Notes: generated by a model not told the origin, from the letters alone. Positions 1,864-39,043 are shown, counted from the first letter of the stretch. The stretch is 64,000 nucleotides of DNA from a virus (IMGVR_UViG_3300020577_009322:32001-96000); one strand, 5' to 3'. Numbers and translations are program-made.

Positions 1864-2043
1864 TAATATATTTATCTATAATCTTCATTACCTTTTTATT
1901 TTCCTTTAATAACTTCTCTTTTTCTTTCTTAGATCCTTTTAGATGAGAAAGATTCTCAGTATATCTGCTCTTAAAACTCTTTAGTTGAAGAAGAGACATA
2001 TTTTTAATAGCTTGCTGTAATATTTCCATTTTCTTATATTTTG

Positions 2044-2131
2044 TTACGGGGATACGATTCGAACGTATGCATAGTCATAATGCTATGGCCGGTTTCTCTC
2101 ACCAGTGGGCCAACCACTACCCCACCCTGCC
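2044..2131 (-). tRNA. Aberrant class-II tRNA-like element (anticodon loop GAGAGAA, no U33, weak acceptor stem)
   Basis: T-arm ATACG-TTCGAAT-CGTAT, D-loop AGTGG, stem CTGGT/ACCGG, long variable hairpin CATAG/CTATG; acceptor GGCAGGG/CCCCGTA has 2 mismatches. Confidence 0.6.
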
Positions 2132-2191: not shown

Positions 2192-3073
2192 CTAGTAATT
2201 ACTATTGACTGGTGTAACCACTTTTGTTGATAGAGAGGCTGTAATATCCTTATCTCTATCATATTCTTTAATAGGGGCTAATTCAAAGTAGGCATCAAAT
2301 CCAAAATCTTTATCATTAACTCCTGTTTCAAAACGATTCCAAGCCTTTTTAGCATATTCATTAGGGAATACTTTATCTCCCCTCTTTTCTAACCCTTCGA
2401 TATATTCCATAAAGGATTTTGGAAGAAAAGATTTACCATAAACTTGCTGATATTGCTTTTCACTATCATTCTCATCTGTTCTAACACCGGTTAGAATAAC
2501 AAATGGTGTGTCATATTCTCCATCGATTAAATTTTGCAATTCACTGTAATCTCCGGAGAATAATGCTTTAGTATCAATCAAAACTGAACAATTTAAGTTT
2601 GTCCAGACCATTCTACCTAACCAAGAACGTAGAAAAATAGCTAATTCCTCTTCTCCTAGTAATGCTTTTCTATATTGTTTATCACCTATACTATGACCAT
2701 CCTTTTGAAAGGAAGTAAACCAGGTGGGTAAATTACTCTCTTCATCTGTCCATGCTGTTGTACATGTACAATTTACATATTGAGATTTCAATCCATCTTT
2801 GCTTAATCTTTCTCTATTGGTCAAATTAAATGAGTGAACAAAATAGTTTTTTAGATTATCATCATACAACCAGAATGATAAACGAACTCTTTCATTACCA
2901 TTTTGATCCTCAGACAAATAGACAATCTCCTTATCTTCTGGACTGTCTTCTTTTCCTAGTAATTTGTTTAATTGTGAACGTGTTGGATTAACTGCAGCAA
3001 CCTGCACCTTTGTAAATCCAACATACTTTGTTGTTGCTTTACTGGACTGACCAGTTTGATTTCCTTTTACCAT
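2192..3073 (-). CDS. Conserved replication-module protein, possibly ssDNA-binding
   Basis: 293-aa ORF between AAA_24 and primase; function inferred from context only. Confidence 0.45.
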   Translation of the reverse strand: MVKGNQTGQSSKATTKYVGFTKVQVAAVNPTRSQLNKLLGKEDSPEDKEIVYLSEDQNGNERVRLSFWLYDDNLKNYFVHSFNLTNRERLSKDGLKSQYVNCTCTTAWTDEESNLPTWFTSFQKDGHSIGDKQYRKALLGEEELAIFLRSWLGRMVWTNLNCSVLIDTKALFSGDYSELQNLIDGEYDTPFVILTGVRTDENDSEKQYQQVYGKSFLPKSFMEYIEGLEKRGDKVFPNEYAKKAWNRFETGVNDKDFGFDAYFELAPIKEYDRDKDITASLSTKVVTPVNSNY

Positions 3074-3111
3074 ACTTTTCTTCTTTTACTCTTTTTCCTT
3101 TCTCTTGATTC

Positions 3112-3903
3112 TTAAATAAATATCTTATCCCATTCTAAGGGACCGTTGTAACCAGTTAAATGCTTTGCTCTAGTTCCTCCAATCTTCTCCTCAGTTCCAG
3201 TGAAATTTACCTTCAAAGTTCCTTTATCATTATAAACATAACCAATAGCATCTACTTTTCTTGGTAAACTTTCTCTTAATTTTCCAGTTAAAGCTAACTG
3301 TTTTGTAACAACTGTCTCTGTTCTGTCAGGTAAAGGTATGAATTTATCTTCAATATGACATACAAAAATCACACATTTTTTTGCAACTTTCATAAATAAA
3401 TTAAAGATAGTCATTACTTCCTCTCTAGACCACTTGTAACCATAACCATCAGGAAGTGTATGTACACTCTGATAATCATCATCTGCAGGATCGAGGAAGT
3501 CTCCTCCTTTAATAGGATTTCCCTTAGCATCTTTAACTCTATTAAAGGATTTTCCTTGTACACTATTCATATAACGATAAGTACCACTCCACTCTGCCCA
3601 TTCATTTACTTCTGTTAGAGTATCCAATGCTACGTAATCGTATCTTTTTCCTTCACTTATCAATTTTTCAGCCACTTTTTTTAACCAGTTTATCTTACCA
3701 ACTGGTCCTCTATCCTCGGGGACTATTATAGCTTTTGCCCGAGATTTTAGAGATCCTCTTTCTGTGTCCACAATTAGACAATTTTCCAATTCTGATAGTG
3801 CAGTAGTTTTTCCACACTTTTCCTTACCAAATAGAATACATGAGCTCATGTTAATTTCTGGCTCATGTGGCTTATTTGGAAAAATAATTTCTTCTTCTAT
3901 CAT
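3112..3903 (-). CDS. AAA_24/Sak4-like P-loop ATPase (putative recombination protein)
   Basis: GKEKCGKT Walker A, IVDTERGS, VALDTLT, IFVCHIE. Confidence 0.75.
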   Translation of the reverse strand: MIEEEIIFPNKPHEPEINMSSCILFGKEKCGKTTALSELENCLIVDTERGSLKSRAKAIIVPEDRGPVGKINWLKKVAEKLISEGKRYDYVALDTLTEVNEWAEWSGTYRYMNSVQGKSFNRVKDAKGNPIKGGDFLDPADDDYQSVHTLPDGYGYKWSREEVMTIFNLFMKVAKKCVIFVCHIEDKFIPLPDRTETVVTKQLALTGKLRESLPRKVDAIGYVYNDKGTLKVNFTGTEEKIGGTRAKHLTGYNGPLEWDKIFI

Positions 3904-3935: not shown

Positions 3936-4370
3936 TTATTCTTCATTATCATTATTTTCATCCCTCTTTTTTCTCAGAAATCTTGCTATCATCTCAGAAA
4001 TGTCTCCCAGGCCGCCTATGCCAGTTAATTTCTTTTCCATAGAATGTTCTAGAGAAGCTTTCACGGATTGCATAATCATCATTCTTACCTTCATAGGATC
4101 TGCAGAAGTTATTTTCTCTAGTTCCTCTATTAGCTCTGAAGTTCTCTCACATTTTCTAGAAACATTGGCAAAGTCTTTATTTGCCTGTTCGACTAACTCT
4201 TTGGTAAGACCACAGGCTTCAAAGGAATTCTCTTTAGTGTGATCGTAAGATATAAATTCTACCTCTTTATCCACTAGATTATTACCAATGAATATAATTT
4301 CTTCTGATGTTAACTCTTGATTATCAAAGAGTTTTATCATTATTTGCTGTTTTTTTGTTACTTTTTCCAT
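3936..4370 (-). CDS. Hypothetical protein
   Basis: Co-oriented 144-aa ORF directly after the vWA gene. Confidence 0.65.
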   Translation of the reverse strand: MEKVTKKQQIMIKLFDNQELTSEEIIFIGNNLVDKEVEFISYDHTKENSFEACGLTKELVEQANKDFANVSRKCERTSELIEELEKITSADPMKVRMMIMQSVKASLEHSMEKKLTGIGGLGDISEMIARFLRKKRDENNDNEE

Positions 4371-4371
4371 T

Positions 4372-5544
4372 TTAATCTTCTGTTAAATAGTGATAGGTTC
4401 CGCCACTTCTATGACAAATATTTTTTAAATCTCTATTACTCTGCATTAGACAGAGGGCATGTATTTTTATTGTAGGATGAAAAGATGGATCAACAGAATC
4501 ACTTCCATCATTAATTATCATTATCTCAAAATGATCCTCAGATAGTTTATAGGGATCACCCATTCCCTTAAACTTTGGTAATTCTCTCTTCTTTATAAAT
4601 GAAATAGTATCCTTAACACACTGATTAACATCAGTTGTTCCTTTGTTTAAACATATAAAATTCAAGTCGGAATACTTCATTCCTTTCTCAATTTTAACAA
4701 ACCCAAAAACTTCTGTTATAAAAGTACCAATATAAACATTATGTGCTTCACAGTGATCTCTTAGCTTAAGAGTAATTGCTGCCTCTAACATTCCTTTCTT
4801 GATATAGTCACTCATACTACCGCTATCATCTATAAGTATAATGAGATTTTGTGCTCTATCAGCTTTGCTAAAACGGGCTCTTACGTATAAGTCTTTAGCT
4901 GTAAGCTTTCTGGAAAATCCTGGTAAAGCTACTTCTACCAAATCCATATTATGGATCTCTGAGAAGTCTTCCATAGGAGTATATTTAACCATCTTTCCAC
5001 CATTATCCTTTACTTTCCTTCCTGATATTGCCTGAAAGGCCTTTTTTCTTGAAAGTAATGCTAAATATTTTATAAAATTAACATTTAGAGAAAGAATACT
5101 ACCTAAGGAATTATCCTTTTCACCTTCACCTTGATTTTCACGATAGTGATTCAGTATGTTTTTTAGATGATTATCTATATCTCCTTCTCCTTCTCCTTCT
5201 TGTTCTCTGTTCTCAAATTTGTAAGATAATACAGTTGCTACCTTAAGCATATCTGTAAAAGAGAAAGATTCTTTACGGATTTTTTTAACAAACCTCTTCT
5301 CCTCATCTCTTAATTGATGAATACTATCTTTATCCCTCCTAGTTTTACAATTAAAGAAATCATAATTAATATCTTCAACCGTCTTAATATCCTCTCCTGC
5401 CATTGTACAGGAGAGAGAATTATAGAAATCTTTTACTCTATGAGGAGATACCTTTCCCTGAAGATTTTCCTTCTTCAGAAATTCATCTATCTCTTTAGTA
5501 GTAATAGCTTCTATATTAGCCGCTTTTTCGAAAAATCTATCCAT
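4372..5544 (-). CDS. vWA-domain protein (ViaA-like partner of MoxR ATPase)
   Basis: MIDAS IILIDDSGSM, KGTTD, IINDG. Confidence 0.85.
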   Translation of the reverse strand: MDRFFEKAANIEAITTKEIDEFLKKENLQGKVSPHRVKDFYNSLSCTMAGEDIKTVEDINYDFFNCKTRRDKDSIHQLRDEEKRFVKKIRKESFSFTDMLKVATVLSYKFENREQEGEGEGDIDNHLKNILNHYRENQGEGEKDNSLGSILSLNVNFIKYLALLSRKKAFQAISGRKVKDNGGKMVKYTPMEDFSEIHNMDLVEVALPGFSRKLTAKDLYVRARFSKADRAQNLIILIDDSGSMSDYIKKGMLEAAITLKLRDHCEAHNVYIGTFITEVFGFVKIEKGMKYSDLNFICLNKGTTDVNQCVKDTISFIKKRELPKFKGMGDPYKLSEDHFEIMIINDGSDSVDPSFHPTIKIHALCLMQSNRDLKNICHRSGGTYHYLTED

Positions 5545-17937: not shown

Positions 17938-20202
17938 TATTTTATCTTTGTTTGTCCTAAAATAGCCTCAATAGACTTTAATCCTTCCTTACTTCCAATT
18001 CCTTTACAGATAGTAAAGAATGAGTCATATATGGTAAAACCATCCCTAACCAATTCTGCTACTAGCTTTAAGTGCCTGATAGACAAATTAAAGGAGATAG
18101 TATACTTATCATGAGCAGTATTTATGTCCTCATAACACTTAACAATTCTGTCAATATCTTTAGGAGATACTGTTGGAGTATGGTAAGTTAATACTTCTTT
18201 AACTTGATTGGTTGTTAGTGGATCAATCTCAATAAGCATGAACCTATCTAATAAGGCTCTATCCAATTTATGTGTACCTGTATACTGACTACCCAAGTTA
18301 GCAGTAGAGATAAATACACATTCAGGATGTACCTTAATTGGCTCACAATCATCAAAACAGTATTCCATTGACAGTTCTTTCCTGAAATCCGTACATGGGA
18401 ATAGGAGGTTATTTGCGGCTGCTGGAGCCATATTGTTATCGTATCGACTCTTTATTCGATACTTCTGTATCTTTATCTATACATACAGTTCAGACTATAT
18501 CATCATGATTTCTCATGTCGGATGTTCGTGGATATATTATATTCTCTTTCGAGTTTCAATATCTAGTCGTTGAACTCGCACTAACCATTTAGATTAGTGA
18601 TAAGCTGCTGATTACCCTCTTCACTAAGGGCTTTCCAGCAATTTATCCGATTTTTTACAAGACGCTACTCCATATAGGAAAACGTGTATTTTTTCCGCAA
18701 AGTTTTACCCTTACCTAAGCAAATTGAAGAAATAGAAGCACAAGTAGAATCAAAGTTGTCATTTGACAGAGATCTGGCTGCTTCTGCTATATTTGCAAAT
18801 ATAGATTTTTTACCAGTTGATAATTCTGTCATGATAACTGACCTCCACTTCCACTTAGAGCGTTCTATCCCATAAGAATAGTTAGGAACTTCTATATAAC
18901 TCCAATAATAACCACCCGCACTAAAAATTTTACCTCTGGCACAAGCAGATATCATGTTATTACATACTTTTGTTTTTCTACCTGCCTCTCTGGTTGAAGG
19001 AAAATTAGCTAATAATCTACCATCTAAAGTATATTGATAAACTTCCTTACTAGTAGATGTGCAATTATTTTGAGTAGTTGGATCCAACTCACAATTAAGT
19101 GTTGGACCTAATAGATCTATCCATTTCTTCTCTATCTTTCTAACTTCAGAAGAATCTTCGGTCTCCAGGATTTCTAGTACTGAGAAATACATATAATCTT
19201 CTCCATATTTATTGAAGATATTCTGCATTCTTGGATTATCCGATTTCCCACCTCTCAACTTTTGCTTGTGTTCAGCTAATCTCTTCTTAATATTTATCGA
19301 ACTACCTACGTAATTCTGCTCCTTTGCTTTAATATAGTAAATACCCGATTTACTAATTACACGTTTTGATTCATCACTAAATAATTTGTACATTGTTTTT
19401 CTTACAATATACAAATATTTGATGAGATATCCTAATTTAATTTTTAACGACTTATTTCATCTAATAACACAATACCTGGTTTCTGAATAACCTCAGAGAA
19501 ACGACTCCTGATGAACTCGGAGGTGGTATGTCCATCTTTTACCTTAATAGCATGGGTTCCAACTAACGACATAACGGGATCACTCATTGTTCCCATATCG
19601 AAGATAGTTAATGGTAATCCCATTTTCTTTGCCAAATTACTAACCAATTCTGTTTTACCTCATCTTGTTATCGTAAAGATTCTTTATTCTTTACTTCTGC
19701 ATCTTTTTATATTCATGCAGTTCAGACTATATCATCACCATTTCTAGTGTCGGGCACTCGTGGGAGAGATTATTGTTGAGCTCACTCTCCTAGTCGTTGA
19801 ACCTTCTAAACTCCTTTATCTCAAGTTTAGCTTGGCTGCTGATTGGCCGTTTCACTACGGCTATTCCAGCAATTCACCCGATTTATACTGGGCTAGGTAA
19901 ACCTAACTCCTTATCCATCTAGTTAATTTCTTACAATGTACGAAAATTATTGACAAATAGGACTATTAGGCTATATTTATTTTAACACCAGTTGGACCCA
20001 ATAGCATACTATTGACGCCCTTCAATATATTCCTCTCCAGAATCTTATACACACCTACTTGTACCTTAAAGTAGTCATTCAAGGATACATAACCATTTGT
20101 AATCTTCAGATCAGCGGTACTTACTGCAGTTTTAATAGGATCTGTTTTTCTTTTTGCTCTTGGCTTACGTACTTTGGTCACCACTTCTCTTTCTGTTGTC
20201 AT
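17937..20202 (-). CDS. MoxR/CbbQ-type AAA+ ATPase in three exons (20202-19985, 19660-19447, 18428-17937; 307 aa spliced)
   Basis: Joining the exons restores GPTGV-GKT and LLDEISR-APA; exon 3 has ISTAN...LDRALLDRF; total 924 nt in frame. Confidence 0.92.
18429..19446 (-). mobile_element. Group I intron 2 (1018 nt) carrying a homing endonuclease
   Basis: Follows U, ends in G; core AATTGCTGGAA, AATCAGCAG, GTTCAACGACTAG, GATGATATAGTCTG; IGS 18657-18672 pairs both exons. Confidence 0.93.
18665..19393 (-). CDS. Intron-encoded GIY-YIG endonuclease with NUMOD1-like repeats
   Basis: SGIYYI...YVGSS...R; VYQYTLDG..FPSTREA..SAGGYYW; probable ATG start at 19393. Confidence 0.9.
   Translation of the reverse strand: MYKLFSDESKRVISKSGIYYIKAKEQNYVGSSINIKKRLAEHKQKLRGGKSDNPRMQNIFNKYGEDYMYFSVLEILETEDSSEVRKIEKKWIDLLGPTLNCELDPTTQNNCTSTSKEVYQYTLDGRLLANFPSTREAGRKTKVCNNMISACARGKIFSAGGYYWSYIEVPNYSYGIERSKWKWRSVIMTELSTGKKSIFANIAEAARSLSNDNFDSTCASISSICLGKGKTLRKKYTFSYME
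19661..19984 (-). mobile_element. Group I intron 1 (324 nt, no ORF)
   Basis: Same four core motifs at about 19723-19875; IGS TTTACCTAGCCCAGT (19887-19901) pairs exon1 ACTGGTGT and exon2 AGGTAAA; terminal G. Confidence 0.93.
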
Positions 20203-30878: not shown

Positions 30879-30894
30879 TTTTAATTAATTTTTG

Positions 30895-30968
30895 TGATCC
30901 GGATTGGATTCGAACCAATGACCACCAGCTTAGAAGGCTGATGCTCTATCCAACTGAGCTACCGGACC
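30895..30968 (-). tRNA. tRNA-Arg(TCT)
   Basis: Canonical cloverleaf GGTCCGG/CCGGATC-A, loop CTTCTAA, GGTTCGAATCC; CCA not encoded. Confidence 0.93.
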
Positions 30969-34037: not shown

Positions 34038-34110
34038 GGGGTCTCATACAAGATTCGAACTTGTGATCTTCTCCATCAAGGAGATGAGTTCCCACTTCTC
34101 CAATGGACCC
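34038..34110 (-). tRNA. Aberrant tRNA-like element (5-nt anticodon loop TTGAT, bulged acceptor stem)
   Basis: GGGTCCAT/ATG(A)GACCC, D-arm GAG-AAGTGGGAA-CTC, TCTCC-TTGAT-GGAGA, ACAAG-TTCGAAT-CTTGT. Confidence 0.65.
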
Positions 34111-36991: not shown

Positions 36992-37201
36992 TTAATTAAT
37001 TGTTACATCACTTTCTGTCAGAAGAGATAATAATGCTCCTACAATATCCTTTACTGTAGCAACATCTCCGTTCTCTGATCCGGGAAATATTTCCTTAACG
37101 GAAGTATCTTCCCTCTTTCCATTAAGATCTTCACGTACCTGGTTCAGCCAATTCTTGTATTCTTCTTTTCTCTTCTTTAGATCTTCAAATCTGTATACCA
37201 T
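36992..37201 (-). CDS. Hypothetical protein (probable start MVYRF at 37201)
   Basis: The upstream part of the track ORF overlaps the lipoprotein in another frame. Confidence 0.55.
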   Translation of the reverse strand: MVYRFEDLKKRKEEYKNWLNQVREDLNGKREDTSVKEIFPGSENGDVATVKDIVGALLSLLTESDVTIN

Positions 37202-37208
37202 AAAAATA

Positions 37209-37697
37209 TTAATGTCTGCCTGGGCTTGAGTAGCTACGGCTGGGTGAGGAATAACTTCTTGAAGGAGAAGAGTAACTTCTGCTTGGTGAAGAATACGATC
37301 GGGGAACAGTATAATCTCTGCTAGGTGGAATATACGTACCATTCGATTTTGAGGAATAGTTATTTCTGCTTGGCGAGGAGTAGTAACTACTGGTCTTAGG
37401 AGTATACTTCTGACTATAGTTACTATACTTAGCTGGTGTATAGTTAGTAAACTCCACAGGATGGCCCTGATAATAGCGATACACATTACTATAACCACCA
37501 TTGTTGAACAATGTATGAAACAGCATATAGTTCATAAAGAAACTACTCTGATCCCCATTGTCATTAACATAAGTTACATTAACCACGCTGTCCTTGCCAT
37601 CAGGTGACCACTCTGCTGTATGACTGGATTGAACACCTGTATTACAGGAAGATAATAGCATTATACCAATTGATAAAGCTATAAAAAACTTCTTCAT
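37209..37697 (-). CDS. Lipoprotein with C-terminal (YSSPSRS)n heptads
   Basis: MKKFFIALSIGIMLLSS-C lipobox; 21-nt repeats. Confidence 0.8.
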   Translation of the reverse strand: MKKFFIALSIGIMLLSSCNTGVQSSHTAEWSPDGKDSVVNVTYVNDNGDQSSFFMNYMLFHTLFNNGGYSNVYRYYQGHPVEFTNYTPAKYSNYSQKYTPKTSSYYSSPSRNNYSSKSNGTYIPPSRDYTVPRSYSSPSRSYSSPSRSYSSPSRSYSSPGRH

Positions 37698-37724
37698 TTT
37701 TATTTCTTTTTAGTTGTTAATAAT

Positions 37725-38205
37725 TAGCACCCTCTTGTCTTACTTACACAAGCCTTTCAACCTTGATTAAGTATTAATGACCAGTAAGAGTAGGGTCACA
37801 TAGTTGATTGATTGATCTCCTTACAGTACTCTTCAGATGCATCATGTATTACTACATTACTTAGTCTTGCACTGAGATATGGACCATCTTCCTACAAGGA
37901 TCGGCTCTTATCAAGCCTTGCATTACTACATCAACTACTGCTGAGAACTCATTCGTATTATGGTACCATAGTTTAGACAAGTGTACTTATTACCTTTTAA
38001 TCTATGCTTTCTTTCTCAAGGAAATAATACGTCTACCATTACTGATAGAATTTGTTATGTAGGGAACAGTGCGACACCTTTCGGTGGCTTCCTTCATACG
38101 TCATTACACGTTCTACAAAGTAGGACTTTGATAACCTCGTTGATTATAAGAACAGTGCCCAGTCTATCAACTACATACAGTTTATGTATTATCCTGCATG
38201 GGTAA
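37725..38205 (-). ncRNA. Candidate large structured ncRNA (~480 nt)
   Basis: No sense-strand ORF in the track; several GNRA-capped hairpins and long-range complementarities. Confidence 0.65.
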
Positions 38206-39043
38206 AAGATTTATGATAAAGCAATAATTGCTGTAATAGGGGAACCTATCAATGCACAAGCAGCTGCTGCTGTAAATCCATATACGGCCCCAACAATTGC
38301 TACTATAATAATAAATAGTATAAGTACGAATAAAGTTATTTTATCTTGTTTTGTCATTTTTCAAATTTTTATATACTAAATAAGTTATTTATCTACCGGA
38401 ACACACATCATATCCTCAACTTGTTCCGCAATATCTTCAGGAGGTAAAATTTCTCTTATGTGAGATAGTGGAAAACCAAGTTCATAATTATGAATATTAT
38501 ACCCAATTATACCTTCCTCAAAGAAAACAACTACTTCTTTTGTTCCTTCACACATACATTCATCCCTAATCATGTATGGTGTTTTTTCATCCATTTGAGG
38601 AAGCCATTTTACATAAGGTTCGTTTATATCACCAACAGCGATTTTTCTACAGACTACGATAGATCCTGGTTTCATATGTAATTGTTTTAAAGATTAGTCA
38701 CTTGTATCAACAGAGCAGAATACTTTCTTAACATGATAAACGTACATGGTATCATACCCATCTCTATTCCATTTGATAGATTCCTCCTTTCCATTATCAG
38801 CTGTTTCTTCTCGATATTTTTGGATATCGACAGCACTCCATGAGTTCATCCATCCAAGATTTTTATATCCCAACTTCTCCAGATGATTACGATAATCCTT
38901 ACTACTATTAAACTCACCCAATTCTGTTTTCATATATAACTATTGATTAATAATACCTTACTGTAGGAGTAGTATATTGAACGTTAATAAATAACAATTT
39001 CTCAACAACAGAAATGTATAAACCTTAAAGATTATTTATACAA

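What the first reader, a model, noticed from the sequence alone, without database searches (positions are those of the whole stretch)
37725..38205. Candidate ~480-nt ornate non-coding RNA
Seen: a long gap in an otherwise dense minus-strand gene run. GNRA-capped hairpins read on the coding strand: CACC-GAAA-GGTG, CTATCA-GTAA-TGGTAG, CTT-GAGA-AAG, TGTA-GTAA-TGCA, ATGTA-GTAA-TACAT, GGTT-GAAA-GGCT. Long-range pairs include TAGTTGAT/ATCAACTA and CTTGTCT/AGACAAG. A hairpin loop TACTCTT is complementary to an upstream AAGAGTA (possible pseudoknot), and GCACTGTTC occurs twice. Known: ROOL and GOLLD are large ornate phage RNAs found near tRNAs. Inference: a compact relative of these or a new class.
Basis: partly seen in the sequence, partly recalled or inferred. 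Interest (0 to 1): 0.75.

Follow-up and report, generated by a model that had tools for sequence, protein, structure and literature searches.

The report
New large structured RNA of crAss-like phages
The gap holds a real, roughly 480-nt folded non-coding RNA that belongs to a previously unclassified family carried, usually once per genome, by well over a hundred environmental crAss-like phages, and whose counterpart in a cultured phage probably corresponds to a very abundant RNA reported with unknown function.

Summary
Six GNRA-capped hairpins are present, against 0.43 expected from shuffles.

The region matches no Rfam family, including ROOL, GOLLD, group I, RNase P and tmRNA. It is a member of a large undescribed family:
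- A second motif added about 50 more contigs.

The consensus fold runs in this order:
- An optional 5' hairpin with an AAACAUUGA loop.
- A GNRA hairpin (P1).
- A three-way junction (P2, P2a, P2b).
- An invariant P2a loop, UGAGAA, complementary to the downstream UUCUCA.
- A second junction (P3, P4, P5) ending in GGGUGCUAA.

Covariation is strong: 95.5% of cells are paired, no shuffle out of 500 does as well, and slid controls give 35-57%.

The RNA is single-copy in 45 of 49 genomes. It often abuts tRNA or tmRNA genes, and no protein neighbour is conserved.

Cellulophaga phage phi14:2 carries a member, in the region where published RNA-seq most likely places an abundant, persistent lncRNA of unknown function.

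Best reading: a stable trans-acting structured RNA gene. Its function is unknown. The scan flagged look-alike stretches in three other genomes.

The parts
37724..38205 (-). Whole RNA unit, about 480 nt: a 5' accessory domain plus the conserved core.
   Evidence: It fills the gap between the upstream stop codon (38213-38211) and the conserved 3' end GGGUGCUAA (37732-37724).
38172..38188 (-). 5' hairpin UACAU-AAACUGU-AUGUA. This is the P0-like hairpin of the window's subtype.
   Evidence: The block AUAAUACAUAAASUGUAUGUAGUUGAUA is conserved in 7 other contigs. It resembles, but does not equal, the family P0 loop AAACAUUGA.
38139..38171 (-). Accessory stem GUUGAU (38171-38166) paired with AUCAAC (38144-38139), enclosing a variable insert.
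   Evidence: The stem is kept in L138, L224, L227 and L228 with inserts of different length, and through G.U pairs in L226. Coordinates.
38063..38138 (-). Rest of the 5' accessory domain. It includes the CACC-GAAA-GGUG hairpin (38086-38075) and the second GCACUGUUC copy.
   Evidence: The stretch GAGGUUAUCAMAGUCC after the accessory stem is shared with the 7 related contigs. The structure here is not resolved.
38049..38062 (-). A-rich single-stranded linker CUACAUAACAAAUU. The family consensus here is UUUACAUAAAGAUA.
   Evidence: Alignments A2 and A4.
38033..38048 (-). P1: the GNRA hairpin CUAUCA-GUAA-UGGUAG.
   Evidence: All 6 pairs covary across 103 sequences.
38025..38031 (-). P2, 5' strand: CGUAUUA.
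   Evidence: It pairs with 37960-37954 (UAAUACG). It is a compensated version of the consensus UGUGUUG/CAACACA. Helix P2 is 99.3% paired and 6 of its 7 pairs show double changes.
38008..38024 (-). P2a: stem UUUC/GAAA with the 9-nt loop CUUGAGAAA. UGAGAA (38018-38013) is the 5' half of the proposed pseudoknot.
   Evidence: All 4 stem pairs covary. The loop core UGAGA is nearly invariant.
37961..38007 (-). P2b: a variable peripheral hairpin region.
   Evidence: Its length and sequence vary across the family.
37954..37960 (-). P2, 3' strand: UAAUACG.
37942..37953 (-). Conserved junction AAUGAG followed by UUCUCA (37947-37942), the 3' half of the pseudoknot.
   Evidence: 98.2% of cells are complementary to the P2a loop in 103 sequences. 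The only variants found are wobble-compatible (C to U, A to G) or at the terminal pair.
37939..37941 (-). P3, 5' strand GCA. It is proposed to pair with UGC at 37729-37727 and close the 3' junction.
   Evidence: The complementarity is invariant. It is not proven: the GCA-to-ACA variants in L271 and L275 are not compensated.
37800..37938 (-). P4: GUAGUUGAU (37938-37930) paired with AUCAACUAU (37808-37800), around a 121-nt insert that carries two GUAA hairpins.
   Evidence: P4 forms with at least 4 contiguous bp in 75 of 88 members, usually 7-10 bp, with many compensated variants. All 7 pairs show double changes in A2.
37796..37799 (-). Conserved junction GUGA.
37730..37795 (-). P5: CCCUACUCUUAC (37795-37784) paired with GUAAGACAAGAGGG (37743-37730), with an internal bulge and a variable apical insert.
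   Evidence: A compensated variant AUCC/GGAU is seen in the second copy in L165.
37724..37729 (-). 3' end UGCUAA: the P3 3' strand plus a conserved UAA tail.
   Evidence: It is the invariant end of the family. In other phages a tRNA or tmRNA starts 4-5 nt after it.
37209..37697 (-). Downstream gene: a 162-aa predicted lipoprotein (MKKFFIALSIGIMLLSSC...). It is not part of the RNA.
   Evidence: Its ATG lies 26 nt after the RNA's 3' end. No family was found for it.
38211..38357 (-). Upstream gene: a 48-aa hydrophobic ORF. It is not part of the RNA.

Best explanation
The gap encodes one copy of a previously unclassified family of large structured non-coding RNAs. Members have cores of 190-350 nt and run to about 300-520 nt with 5' accessory parts. 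The family is carried by environmental crAss-like phages of Bacteroidota and a few other large phages.

Shown:
- A conserved, covarying fold: P1 GNRA hairpin, a P2/P2a/P2b three-way junction, and a P3/P4/P5 junction.
- Near-invariant junction strands.
- Minus-strand orientation, the same as the neighbouring genes.
- One copy per genome as a rule.
- No conserved protein partner and no conserved downstream gene.

Inferred:
- The RNA is transcribed with its neighbours and released as a discrete, stable, abundant RNA. In other phages tRNA or tmRNA genes abut it within 2-5 nt, so RNase P/Z-type processing would set its ends.
- It acts in trans as a compact folded particle. The proposed compaction comes from the loop-strand pseudoknot UGAGAA/UUCUCA and from the P1 GUAA loop docking onto a helix.
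- It binds, or acts on, a highly conserved host or phage component. The most likely target is the RNA-processing or translation machinery, whose phage-borne RNAs (tRNAs, tmRNA) it travels with.

The biochemical activity is not known.
For: Family size and specificity:
Nearly all carry the full motif set.
- Model R1 gave 103 hits at E < 0.01 in 100 loci.
- A second motif found 103 contigs, about half of them new.
- In 185,579 prokaryote species genomes there were 25 hits. Only 5 are true members, all on MAG contigs.

Structure:
- On an unbiased MAFFT alignment, 89.4% of cells are paired, 29 of 44 pairs have double changes, 0 of 500 shuffles do as well, and slid controls give 36-48%.
- For the 5' domain on 103 sequences, 95.5% are paired, against 35-57% when slid.
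- P4 and P5 were parsed directly.
- The P0 stem covaries.
- G.U pairs argue for RNA read from this strand.

The window copy scores 81.9 bits, E = 3.9e-18.

Gene-like rather than site-like behaviour:
- One copy in 45 of 49 genomes, and one in the window's own 155-kb genome.
- No conserved neighbouring protein; the best cluster covers 20 of 113 loci.
- What lies downstream varies: ORFs, tRNA or tmRNA.
- All 52 tRNA or tmRNA genes within 2.5 kb are on the same strand, and they peak just downstream.
- In L126 a 5' domain is followed by a hairpin plus U-run.

Expression:
- Cellulophaga phage phi14:2 has a member scoring 90.6 bits, in a 685-nt gap between genes.
- Drobysheva et al. (bioRxiv 10.1101/2020.03.07.982082) report two long intergenic regions in this part of the genome. 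They are transcribed rightward, more strongly than most protein genes, from the earliest time point and without later decline.

Constraint: the core is about 90% identical among phages whose TerL proteins share only 23-31% identity.
Against: - There is no direct expression data for the window's phage.
- Assigning the phi14:2 lncRNA to this locus rests on my reading of a gene numbering that differs from GenBank's.
- About 45% of members have an ATG ORF starting 10-40 nt after the 3' end, and no terminator was found after the window copy. A cis role for the downstream gene is therefore not excluded.
- The pseudoknot and P3 are supported only by invariant complementarity and wobble-compatible variants, not by compensatory double changes.
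- The single-sequence MFE is ordinary.
- No partner or activity has been identified.
Confidence: 0.6

Rival explanations
1. A cis-acting 5' leader. The folded RNA stays attached to the downstream transcript. It either protects it (a 5' stabiliser or exonuclease block), boosts translation initiation in SD-less Bacteroidota, or modifies RNA polymerase for processive antitermination, as put RNA does in HK022.
For: - It is always co-oriented with the downstream genes.
- An ORF starts 10-40 nt after the conserved 3' end in about 45% of members, including the window (26 nt).
- No terminator-like site follows the window copy.
- A three-way junction plus a loop-strand pseudoknot is also the plan of exonuclease-resistant RNAs. 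That comparison is from my own knowledge and was not tested.
Against: - It is single-copy in 45 of 49 genomes, whereas leader or antitermination sites usually recur at several operons.
- What lies downstream is unrelated from phage to phage and includes tRNAs and tmRNA, which need no translation.
- tRNA genes abut both ends within 2-5 nt, which implies excision.
- The phi14:2 transcript outlasts the other early mRNAs.
Confidence: 0.18
2. A self-cleaving or otherwise catalytic processing RNA. It would cut the polycistronic transcripts of RNA islands and free neighbouring tRNA, tmRNA or mRNA.
For: - The junction nucleotides are near-invariant (AAAUGAG, GUGA, UGCUAA) within a pseudoknotted core.
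- It abuts tRNA or tmRNA genes directly.
- In some contigs a 5' domain alone is fused directly upstream of a tRNA: the second copy in L034, L128 and L122.
- Small ribozymes are known next to phage tRNAs. This is from my own knowledge.
Against: - It is far larger than any known self-cleaver.
- It matches no hammerhead, twister, pistol, hatchet, HDV-like, glmS or group I model.
- RNase P and RNase Z can already do this job.
- No cleavage-site signature was identified.
Confidence: 0.1
3. A riboswitch-like ligand sensor that controls the downstream gene.
For: It has a compact, conserved, pseudoknotted core with invariant junctions, and it lies upstream of ORFs in about half of the cases.
Against: - There is no expression platform: no terminator or start-site sequestering helix is conserved after GGGUGCUAA.
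- The downstream genes are unrelated and include tRNAs and tmRNA.
- It matches no Rfam riboswitch.
Confidence: 0.04
4. A divergent member of ROOL, GOLLD or another known large RNA (group I intron, RNase P, tmRNA, 6S).
For: It shares the habit of being a large ornate RNA in phages near tRNA genes.
Against: No Rfam family reaches even E = 0.1 on the window copy or the phi14:2 copy. The same scan found two genuine group I introns and a tRNA in this window, so the search works here.
Confidence: 0.03
5. A DNA-level element such as a promoter array, an origin or a packaging site, with no functional RNA.
For: - In many members the 3' arm of the P0 hairpin plus UUUG reads TACCTTTG, which fits the Bacteroidota -7 promoter box TAnnTTTG.
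- A sigma-70-like match (11 of 12) lies at 38170-38143.
Against: - More than 30 base pairs covary, and the G.U pairs form only on this strand.
- The P0 stems covary even where no TTTG follows.
- The homologous region in phi14:2 is strongly transcribed.
Confidence: 0.02

Closest known systems
The 'long non-coding RNAs' of the early region of Cellulophaga phage phi14:2 (Drobysheva et al., bioRxiv 10.1101/2020.03.07.982082; later in Nature)
   Same: phi14:2 carries a clear member of the family (R1 90.6 bits, record about 2913-3369) in a 685-nt gap between genes. The paper reports rightward transcription of two long intergenic regions there. It is stronger than for most genes and runs from early to late infection.
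   Different: The paper gives no sequence family, structure or function. Equating its 'g004-g005 junction' with this gap is my inference from gene spacing. The second region is a tmRNA by ARAGORN. GenBank annotates small antisense ORFs over both regions.
ROOL and GOLLD (large ornate RNAs of phages and prophages)
   Same: They are large, multi-junction, phage-borne RNAs, frequently beside tRNA genes, with no associated protein and unknown function (their properties as recalled and as in PMC12286853, listed).
   Different: There is no model match. This RNA is smaller and has a different architecture. Its hosts are Bacteroidota crAss-like phages. Oligomerisation was not tested.
HK022 put RNAs and other processive-antitermination leader RNAs
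   Same: They are structured RNAs that phages encode in the transcribed leader ahead of varied genes.
   Different: put RNAs are about 70 nt and occur at each early operon. This RNA is 300-500 nt and single-copy. The comparison is from my own knowledge and was not tested.
Stable RNAs of the T4 tRNA cluster (species 1 and 2 RNAs)
   Same: They are phage RNAs of unknown function, co-transcribed with tRNA genes and cut out alongside them.
   Different: No sequence relation was tested and those RNAs are much smaller. Recalled from memory only.
Group I introns, two of which are present elsewhere in this window
   Same: GNRA loops, multi-junction fold, pseudoknot and variable peripheral hairpins.
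   Different: This RNA is not inside a gene, has no flanking exons and does not match the group I model. The true introns at 19704-19978 and 18471-18690 score 88.9 and 64.1 bits.

Membership tests
New family defined here (5' domain model R1) | Significant match to the covariance model of the 5' domain (P1, P2, P2a and the pseudoknot strand) | tested here: met
   Window 38064-37937, minus strand: 81.9 bits, E = 3.9e-18. The window copy was one of the 63 seed sequences. Independent support comes from the collinear blastn blocks with G001 and G003.
New family defined here (5' domain model R1) | 3' domain: P4 closing stem, GUGA, P5 (CCCU.../...AGGG) and the terminal GGGUGCUAA | tested here: met
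   A 9-bp P4, GUGA at 37799-37796, P5, and GGGUGCUAA at 37732-37724.
New family defined here (5' domain model R1) | P2a loop UGAGAA complementary to the downstream UUCUCA | tested here: met
   38018-38013 and 37947-37942. Across the family 98.2% of cells are complementary. True covariation could not be shown.
New family defined here (5' domain model R1) | 5' P0 hairpin with the loop AAACAUUGA | tested here: inconclusive
   The canonical P0 lies 111-317 nt upstream of 80 cores. The window instead has the hairpin UACAU-AAACUGU-AUGUA, from an alternative 5' accessory domain shared with 7 contigs.
New family defined here (5' domain model R1) | Single copy per phage genome, co-oriented with its neighbours | tested here: met
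   One significant hit in the 155,463-bp genome. 45 of 49 other genomes also have one.
New family defined here (5' domain model R1) | Accumulates as a discrete abundant RNA | not testable with these tools
The only evidence is the published report for the phi14:2 region, and the mapping to this locus is inferred.
ROOL / GOLLD | Match to the Rfam covariance model | tested here: not met
   There is no hit at the gathering threshold or at E up to 10, on the window copy or the phi14:2 copy.
Group I intron | Match to the Rfam Intron_gpI model and a position inside a gene | tested here: not met
   No hit. The element is intergenic. Two true introns in the same window serve as positive controls.
Riboswitch | Association with a consistent gene set, followed by an expression platform | tested here: not met
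   The downstream genes are unrelated and include tRNA and tmRNA. No conserved terminator or sequestering helix is present.
Processive antitermination leader RNA (put-like) | Present in the leader of each regulated operon, directly after a promoter | tested here: inconclusive
   The single copy argues against it. Promoter positions are unknown. TAnnTTTG-like boxes occur upstream in 48 of 113 members, but most of them are the P0 arm itself.

The most novel reading that the evidence does not exclude
This is a new class of large functional RNA specific to crAss-like phages. It would be either a ribozyme or a self-assembling RNA particle of the kind recently shown for ROOL and GOLLD. It would be made in large amounts throughout infection to act on host or phage RNA or translation machinery. 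Its invariant pseudoknotted core would be the active or binding site.
Probability: 0.2. Interest if true: 0.92.

Novelty: new variant of a known kind. Interest (0 to 1): 0.8.

Why it matters
crAss-like phages are among the most abundant viruses of Bacteroidota, and their biology is still thinly understood. This work defines a large RNA with strong covariation and near-invariant core strands. It is far better conserved than the phages' hallmark proteins: the core is about 90% identical where TerL is 23-31% identical. It is present in well over 150 phage contigs and absent from Rfam.

It very probably corresponds to one of two highly abundant, persistent 'long non-coding RNAs' seen in the only transcriptome of a cultured environmental crAss-like phage, whose function the authors left open. 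A consensus structure, defined boundaries and a cultured, genetically accessible system (phi14:2 on Cellulophaga baltica) make that open question directly testable.

The same analysis suggests that the second of those RNAs is a phage tmRNA. It also shows that GenBank's small antisense ORFs over both regions are probably spurious.

Tried and rejected
- Relatives through the flanking proteins. The 162-aa lipoprotein and the 96-aa ORF have no relatives in IMG/VR.
- blastn or megablast of the element and of 16 kb around it against GenBank phages: no match. The cultured member was found only by querying with a consensus-like copy.
- Rfam at the gathering threshold and at E up to 10: only noise such as miRNA and snoRNA models.
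- Single-sequence folding. Both strands are unremarkable (z = -1.1 and +0.1), and the phi14:2 copy gives z = +1.3, so MFE is uninformative here.
I used a 5'-domain model plus direct parsing of the 3' domain instead.
- RNAalifold on the raw MAFFT alignment recovered only P1, P2 and the base of P5. The other helices were set by eye and then tested.
- A conserved protein partner: none was found. The commonest downstream protein (20 of 113 loci) and the neighbours in the window have no informative PHROG or Pfam match.
- P0 as a general promoter. The motif is essentially confined to the region upstream of this RNA, and only one other exact copy exists in phi14:2, so it is not a reused promoter.
- Gut crAss-like phages (Carjivirus communis, a Kehishuvirus, cr50_1), Flavobacterium phage FpV4 and Azobacteroides phage: no significant R1 hit.
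- Literature searches for a described family found nothing beyond the phi14:2 transcriptome remark.

Full report
**The locus**

The window is positions 32001-96000 of a complete 155,463-bp IMG/VR phage genome with direct terminal repeats. Its large terminase is related only to those of crAss-like phages (Crassvirales), at about 26% identity. It is therefore a distant crAss-like phage, probably of a Bacteroidota host. The gene downstream of the finding starts with a Bacteroidota-style lipoprotein signal.

The finding sits in a run of minus-strand genes. It lies between a 48-aa ORF (38357-38211) and a 162-aa ORF (37697-37209), and the gap holds no minus-strand ORF of 40 aa or more.

**Checking the observation**

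Six GNRA-capped hairpins of at least 4 bp occur in 481 nt. Shuffles give a mean of 0.43, and none of 2000 reaches six.

Folding energy alone is unremarkable, with z = -1.1 on the minus strand and +0.1 on the plus strand. No Rfam family matches at the curated thresholds or at E up to 10. The same scan found two group I introns and a tRNA elsewhere in the window, so the search does work on this sequence.

**Finding relatives**

The flanking proteins and blastn against GenBank phages gave nothing. Phage contigs related through the terminase did help. blastn of the element against them showed short collinear conserved blocks, twice in one genome and once in another.

The best-conserved block, ACRAAYGAGTTCTCAGCA, was then scanned against IMG/VR. 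Almost all hits also carry the other blocks at the right spacing.

A second block from the 3' end, AAGAAAGAGGGTGCTAA, hit 103 contigs. About half were new, and nearly all the new ones I inspected were members with small changes in the first block.

The same 18-mer found 25 places in one genome for each of 185,579 prokaryote species. Twenty are chance hits inside genes. Only five are real members, and all five lie on metagenome-assembled contigs. The element is therefore phage-specific and has not been seen as a prophage in an isolate.

**Consensus architecture**

Read 5' to 3':
- **P0**, optional: a hairpin with a variable stem and the conserved loop (C)UAAACAUUGA(A). It lies 15-200 nt upstream of the core.
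- An A-rich strand, UUUACAUAAAGAUA.
- **P1**: CUAUCA-GUAA-UGGUAG.
- **P2**: (U)GUGUUG paired with CAACAC(A). It encloses P2a (UUCC, the loop CUUGAGAAA, GGAA) and a variable hairpin P2b.
- The junction AAAUGAG, then UUCUCA, which is complementary to the UGAGAA of the P2a loop.
- **P3**: GCA, paired with UGC at the 3' end.
- **P4**: GUAGUUA paired with UAACUAC, around a variable insert.
- The junction GUGA.
- **P5**: CCCUACUCUUAU paired with AUAAGAAAGAGGG, with an internal bulge and a variable insert.
- The tail UGCUAA.

**Covariation**

On a plain MAFFT alignment of 36 compact members:
- 89.4% of cells are paired.
- 29 of 44 pairs carry changes on both sides.
- No shuffle out of 500 reaches any of the measures.
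- Sliding the 3' partners by 1-3 columns drops pairing to 36-48%.

On 103 sequences aligned to a 5'-domain model:
- 95.5% of cells are paired, against 35-57% when slid.
- Every pair of P1 and P2a, and 6 of 7 pairs of P2, show double changes.

P2 is replaced wholesale in some members: GUAUUA/UAAUAC in the window, CGUGAGU/ACUCACG in L239 and UUACUG/CAGUAG in the second copy in L074. P4 forms in 75 of 88 members, with variants such as GAUGAUUA/UAAUCAUC and GCAAUUA/UAAUUGC. The P0 stems covary widely. The frequent G.U pairs can form only in RNA read from this strand.

The loop-strand pseudoknot is 98% complementary but almost invariant. The variants I found are:
- C to U opposite G.
- A to G opposite U.
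- Changes at the terminal pair.
- A one-base deletion.

All of these fit pairing, but none is a compensatory double change. P3 is weaker still, because two members have ACA for GCA without compensation.

**The window copy**

It maps fully onto this plan; coordinates are under 'parts'. It is one of the largest members, for three reasons:
- P5 carries a 40-nt insert.
- A 5' accessory domain of about 140 nt replaces the canonical P0 arrangement.

That accessory domain is itself conserved in seven other contigs. It comprises the hairpin UACAU-AAACUGU-AUGUA, the stem GUUGAU/AUCAAC around a variable insert, and then GAGGUUAUCAMAGUCC.

- 'CTT-GAGA-AAG' is really the P2a loop.
- The TACTCTT 'loop' is really the P5 5' strand.
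- The pairs CTTGTCT/AGACAAG and TACTCTT/AAGAGTA are not conserved.

The pair TAGTTGAT/ATCAACTA is P4 and stands.

**Genomic behaviour**

The RNA is single-copy in the window's genome and in 45 of 49 other carrier genomes. The rest have two copies, sometimes in tandem.

Neighbouring proteins are not conserved. The best cluster covers 20 of 113 loci and has no known family.

What follows the 3' end varies:
- An ATG ORF within 10-40 nt in about 45% of members, 26 nt in the window.
- A tRNA or tmRNA in about 10%.
- Other non-coding sequence in the rest.

In several contigs a tRNA or tmRNA begins 4-5 nt after UGCUAA, and a tRNA ends 2 nt before P0. All 52 tRNA or tmRNA genes within 2.5 kb are co-oriented with the RNA. 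A few contigs carry only the 5' domain, followed directly by a tRNA or by a hairpin plus U-run.

Of 25 near-complete carrier genomes, 18 have a terminase related to the window's at 23-31% identity. Seven show no detectable relation, and these include phages of 270-373 kb. The RNA core is thus far better conserved than the hallmark protein, and it occurs beyond one phage lineage.

It was not found in three gut crAss-like phages, Flavobacterium phage FpV4 or the Azobacteroides phage.

**Link to experiment**

A consensus-like copy hit one cultured phage, Cellulophaga phage phi14:2 (Crassvirales, host Cellulophaga baltica). The model scores 90.6 bits there. P0 starts right after gp006, and GGGUGCUAA ends at about record position 3369. 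Both lie inside a 685-nt gap that GenBank fills with three tiny antisense ORFs.

The phi14:2 transcriptome paper states that two long intergenic regions, the 'g004-g005 and g005-g006 junctions', are transcribed rightward at higher levels than most protein genes. They are present from the first time point and do not decline, and their functions 'remain to be determined'.

The paper's numbering is not GenBank's. Under GenBank numbering the g005-g006 gap would be only 18 nt. The only two consecutive long gaps in this part of the genome are 2905-3589, which holds this RNA, and about 4102-4601, where ARAGORN calls a tmRNA. I therefore assign the first lncRNA to this family, at about 80% confidence. 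I found no later paper that describes the family.

**Interpretation**

Several features point to a stable, trans-acting RNA gene that works as a compact folded particle, rather than a regulatory site:
- It is a single-copy, gene-like element.
- Its core is extremely conserved while its peripheral hairpins vary freely.
- It has no fixed protein or downstream partner.
- It sits among tRNA and tmRNA genes that would be cut away by RNase P/Z.
- It is probably abundant and persistent in phi14:2.

What it binds or catalyses is unknown. Because it travels with phage tRNAs and tmRNA, the RNA-processing or translation machinery is my first guess. That guess is inference only.

The main rival is a cis-acting leader (stabiliser, translation aid or antiterminator). 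It stays alive because ORFs start so close to the 3' end. A processing ribozyme, a riboswitch, a disguised known family and a DNA-level element are progressively less likely, for the reasons given under rivals.

**Novelty**

This is a new RNA class with the general habit of ROOL and GOLLD: large, ornate, phage-borne and near tRNA genes. It shows no detectable relation to them. The transcript has probably been seen before in one phage, but it was never defined as a family or given a structure.

Earlier first-stage notes of this scan flagged look-alike non-coding stretches in three other genomes. I did not examine those genomes.

Noticed in passing
window 18471-19978, minus strand: Two group I introns lie here (Rfam 64.1 bits at 18471-18690 and 88.9 bits at 19704-19978). 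Between them is a GIY-YIG/NUMOD1 homing-endonuclease ORF (18665-19414). The interrupted host gene was not identified; the flanking ORFs have no Pfam match.
   Followed up: partly
L173 3403-3872 (KC821624.1, about 4031-4500): ARAGORN calls a tmRNA (tag GSSVQKLAMVA*) in the second long gap between genes in phi14:2. Rfam's tmRNA models do not reach threshold there. It is probably the second published 'lncRNA'. GenBank annotates small antisense ORFs (gp013, gp014) over it, and gp007-gp009 over the new RNA. All five are likely spurious.
   Followed up: partly
window 36992-37697, minus strand: Two same-strand ORFs overlap by about 290 nt in different frames (37209-37697, 162 aa, and 36992-37501, 169 aa). 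This could be a frameshifted or programmed-frameshift gene, or one ORF could be spurious.
   Followed up: no
window 38170-38143, minus strand: A sigma-70-like promoter match, TTGATA-16-TATAAT (11 of 12), lies inside the 5' accessory domain. The spacing is not kept in the closest relative (G001 copy B), and Bacteroidota promoters differ, so it is probably fortuitous.
   Followed up: partly
window 38173-38166 and 37937-37930: The P4 5' strand, (G)UAGUUGAU, is duplicated in the 5' accessory domain. In principle either copy could pair with AUCAACUA (37808-37801) or AUCAAC (38144-38139), which hints at alternative conformers. The duplication is also present in G001 copy B.
   Followed up: no
L049, L107, L123 (about 10-60 nt after GGGUGCUAA); L037, L104; L109, L139: Other conserved non-coding blocks follow the RNA in several contigs, for example AAAACUACUUGAGUA...GGUCAAUCAACAA. 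This suggests further unclassified RNAs in the same 'RNA islands'.
   Followed up: no
L247 and L248 (last 90 nt before GGGTGCTAA): Two contigs share only the P5/3'-end module (CCCUACUCUUAU...AUAAGAAAGAGGGUGCUAA) behind an unrelated upstream sequence. L226, L224 and L227 share the window-type 5' accessory domain and P1 but diverge afterwards. The family looks modular.
   Followed up: no
window 38007-37961 (P2b); L109, L113, L130: In some members, including the window, the apical loop of P2b carries a P0-like motif (CUAAACUAUGG or AAACUAUGA). The same loop module may have been moved to another helix.
   Followed up: no
window 2043-2131, 30894-30968, 34038-34109, minus strand: There are three phage tRNA genes: Leu-GAG, Arg-TCT and Ser-TGA. 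The nearest lies 3.6 kb downstream of the RNA, so this copy, unlike many relatives, does not abut a tRNA.
   Followed up: no
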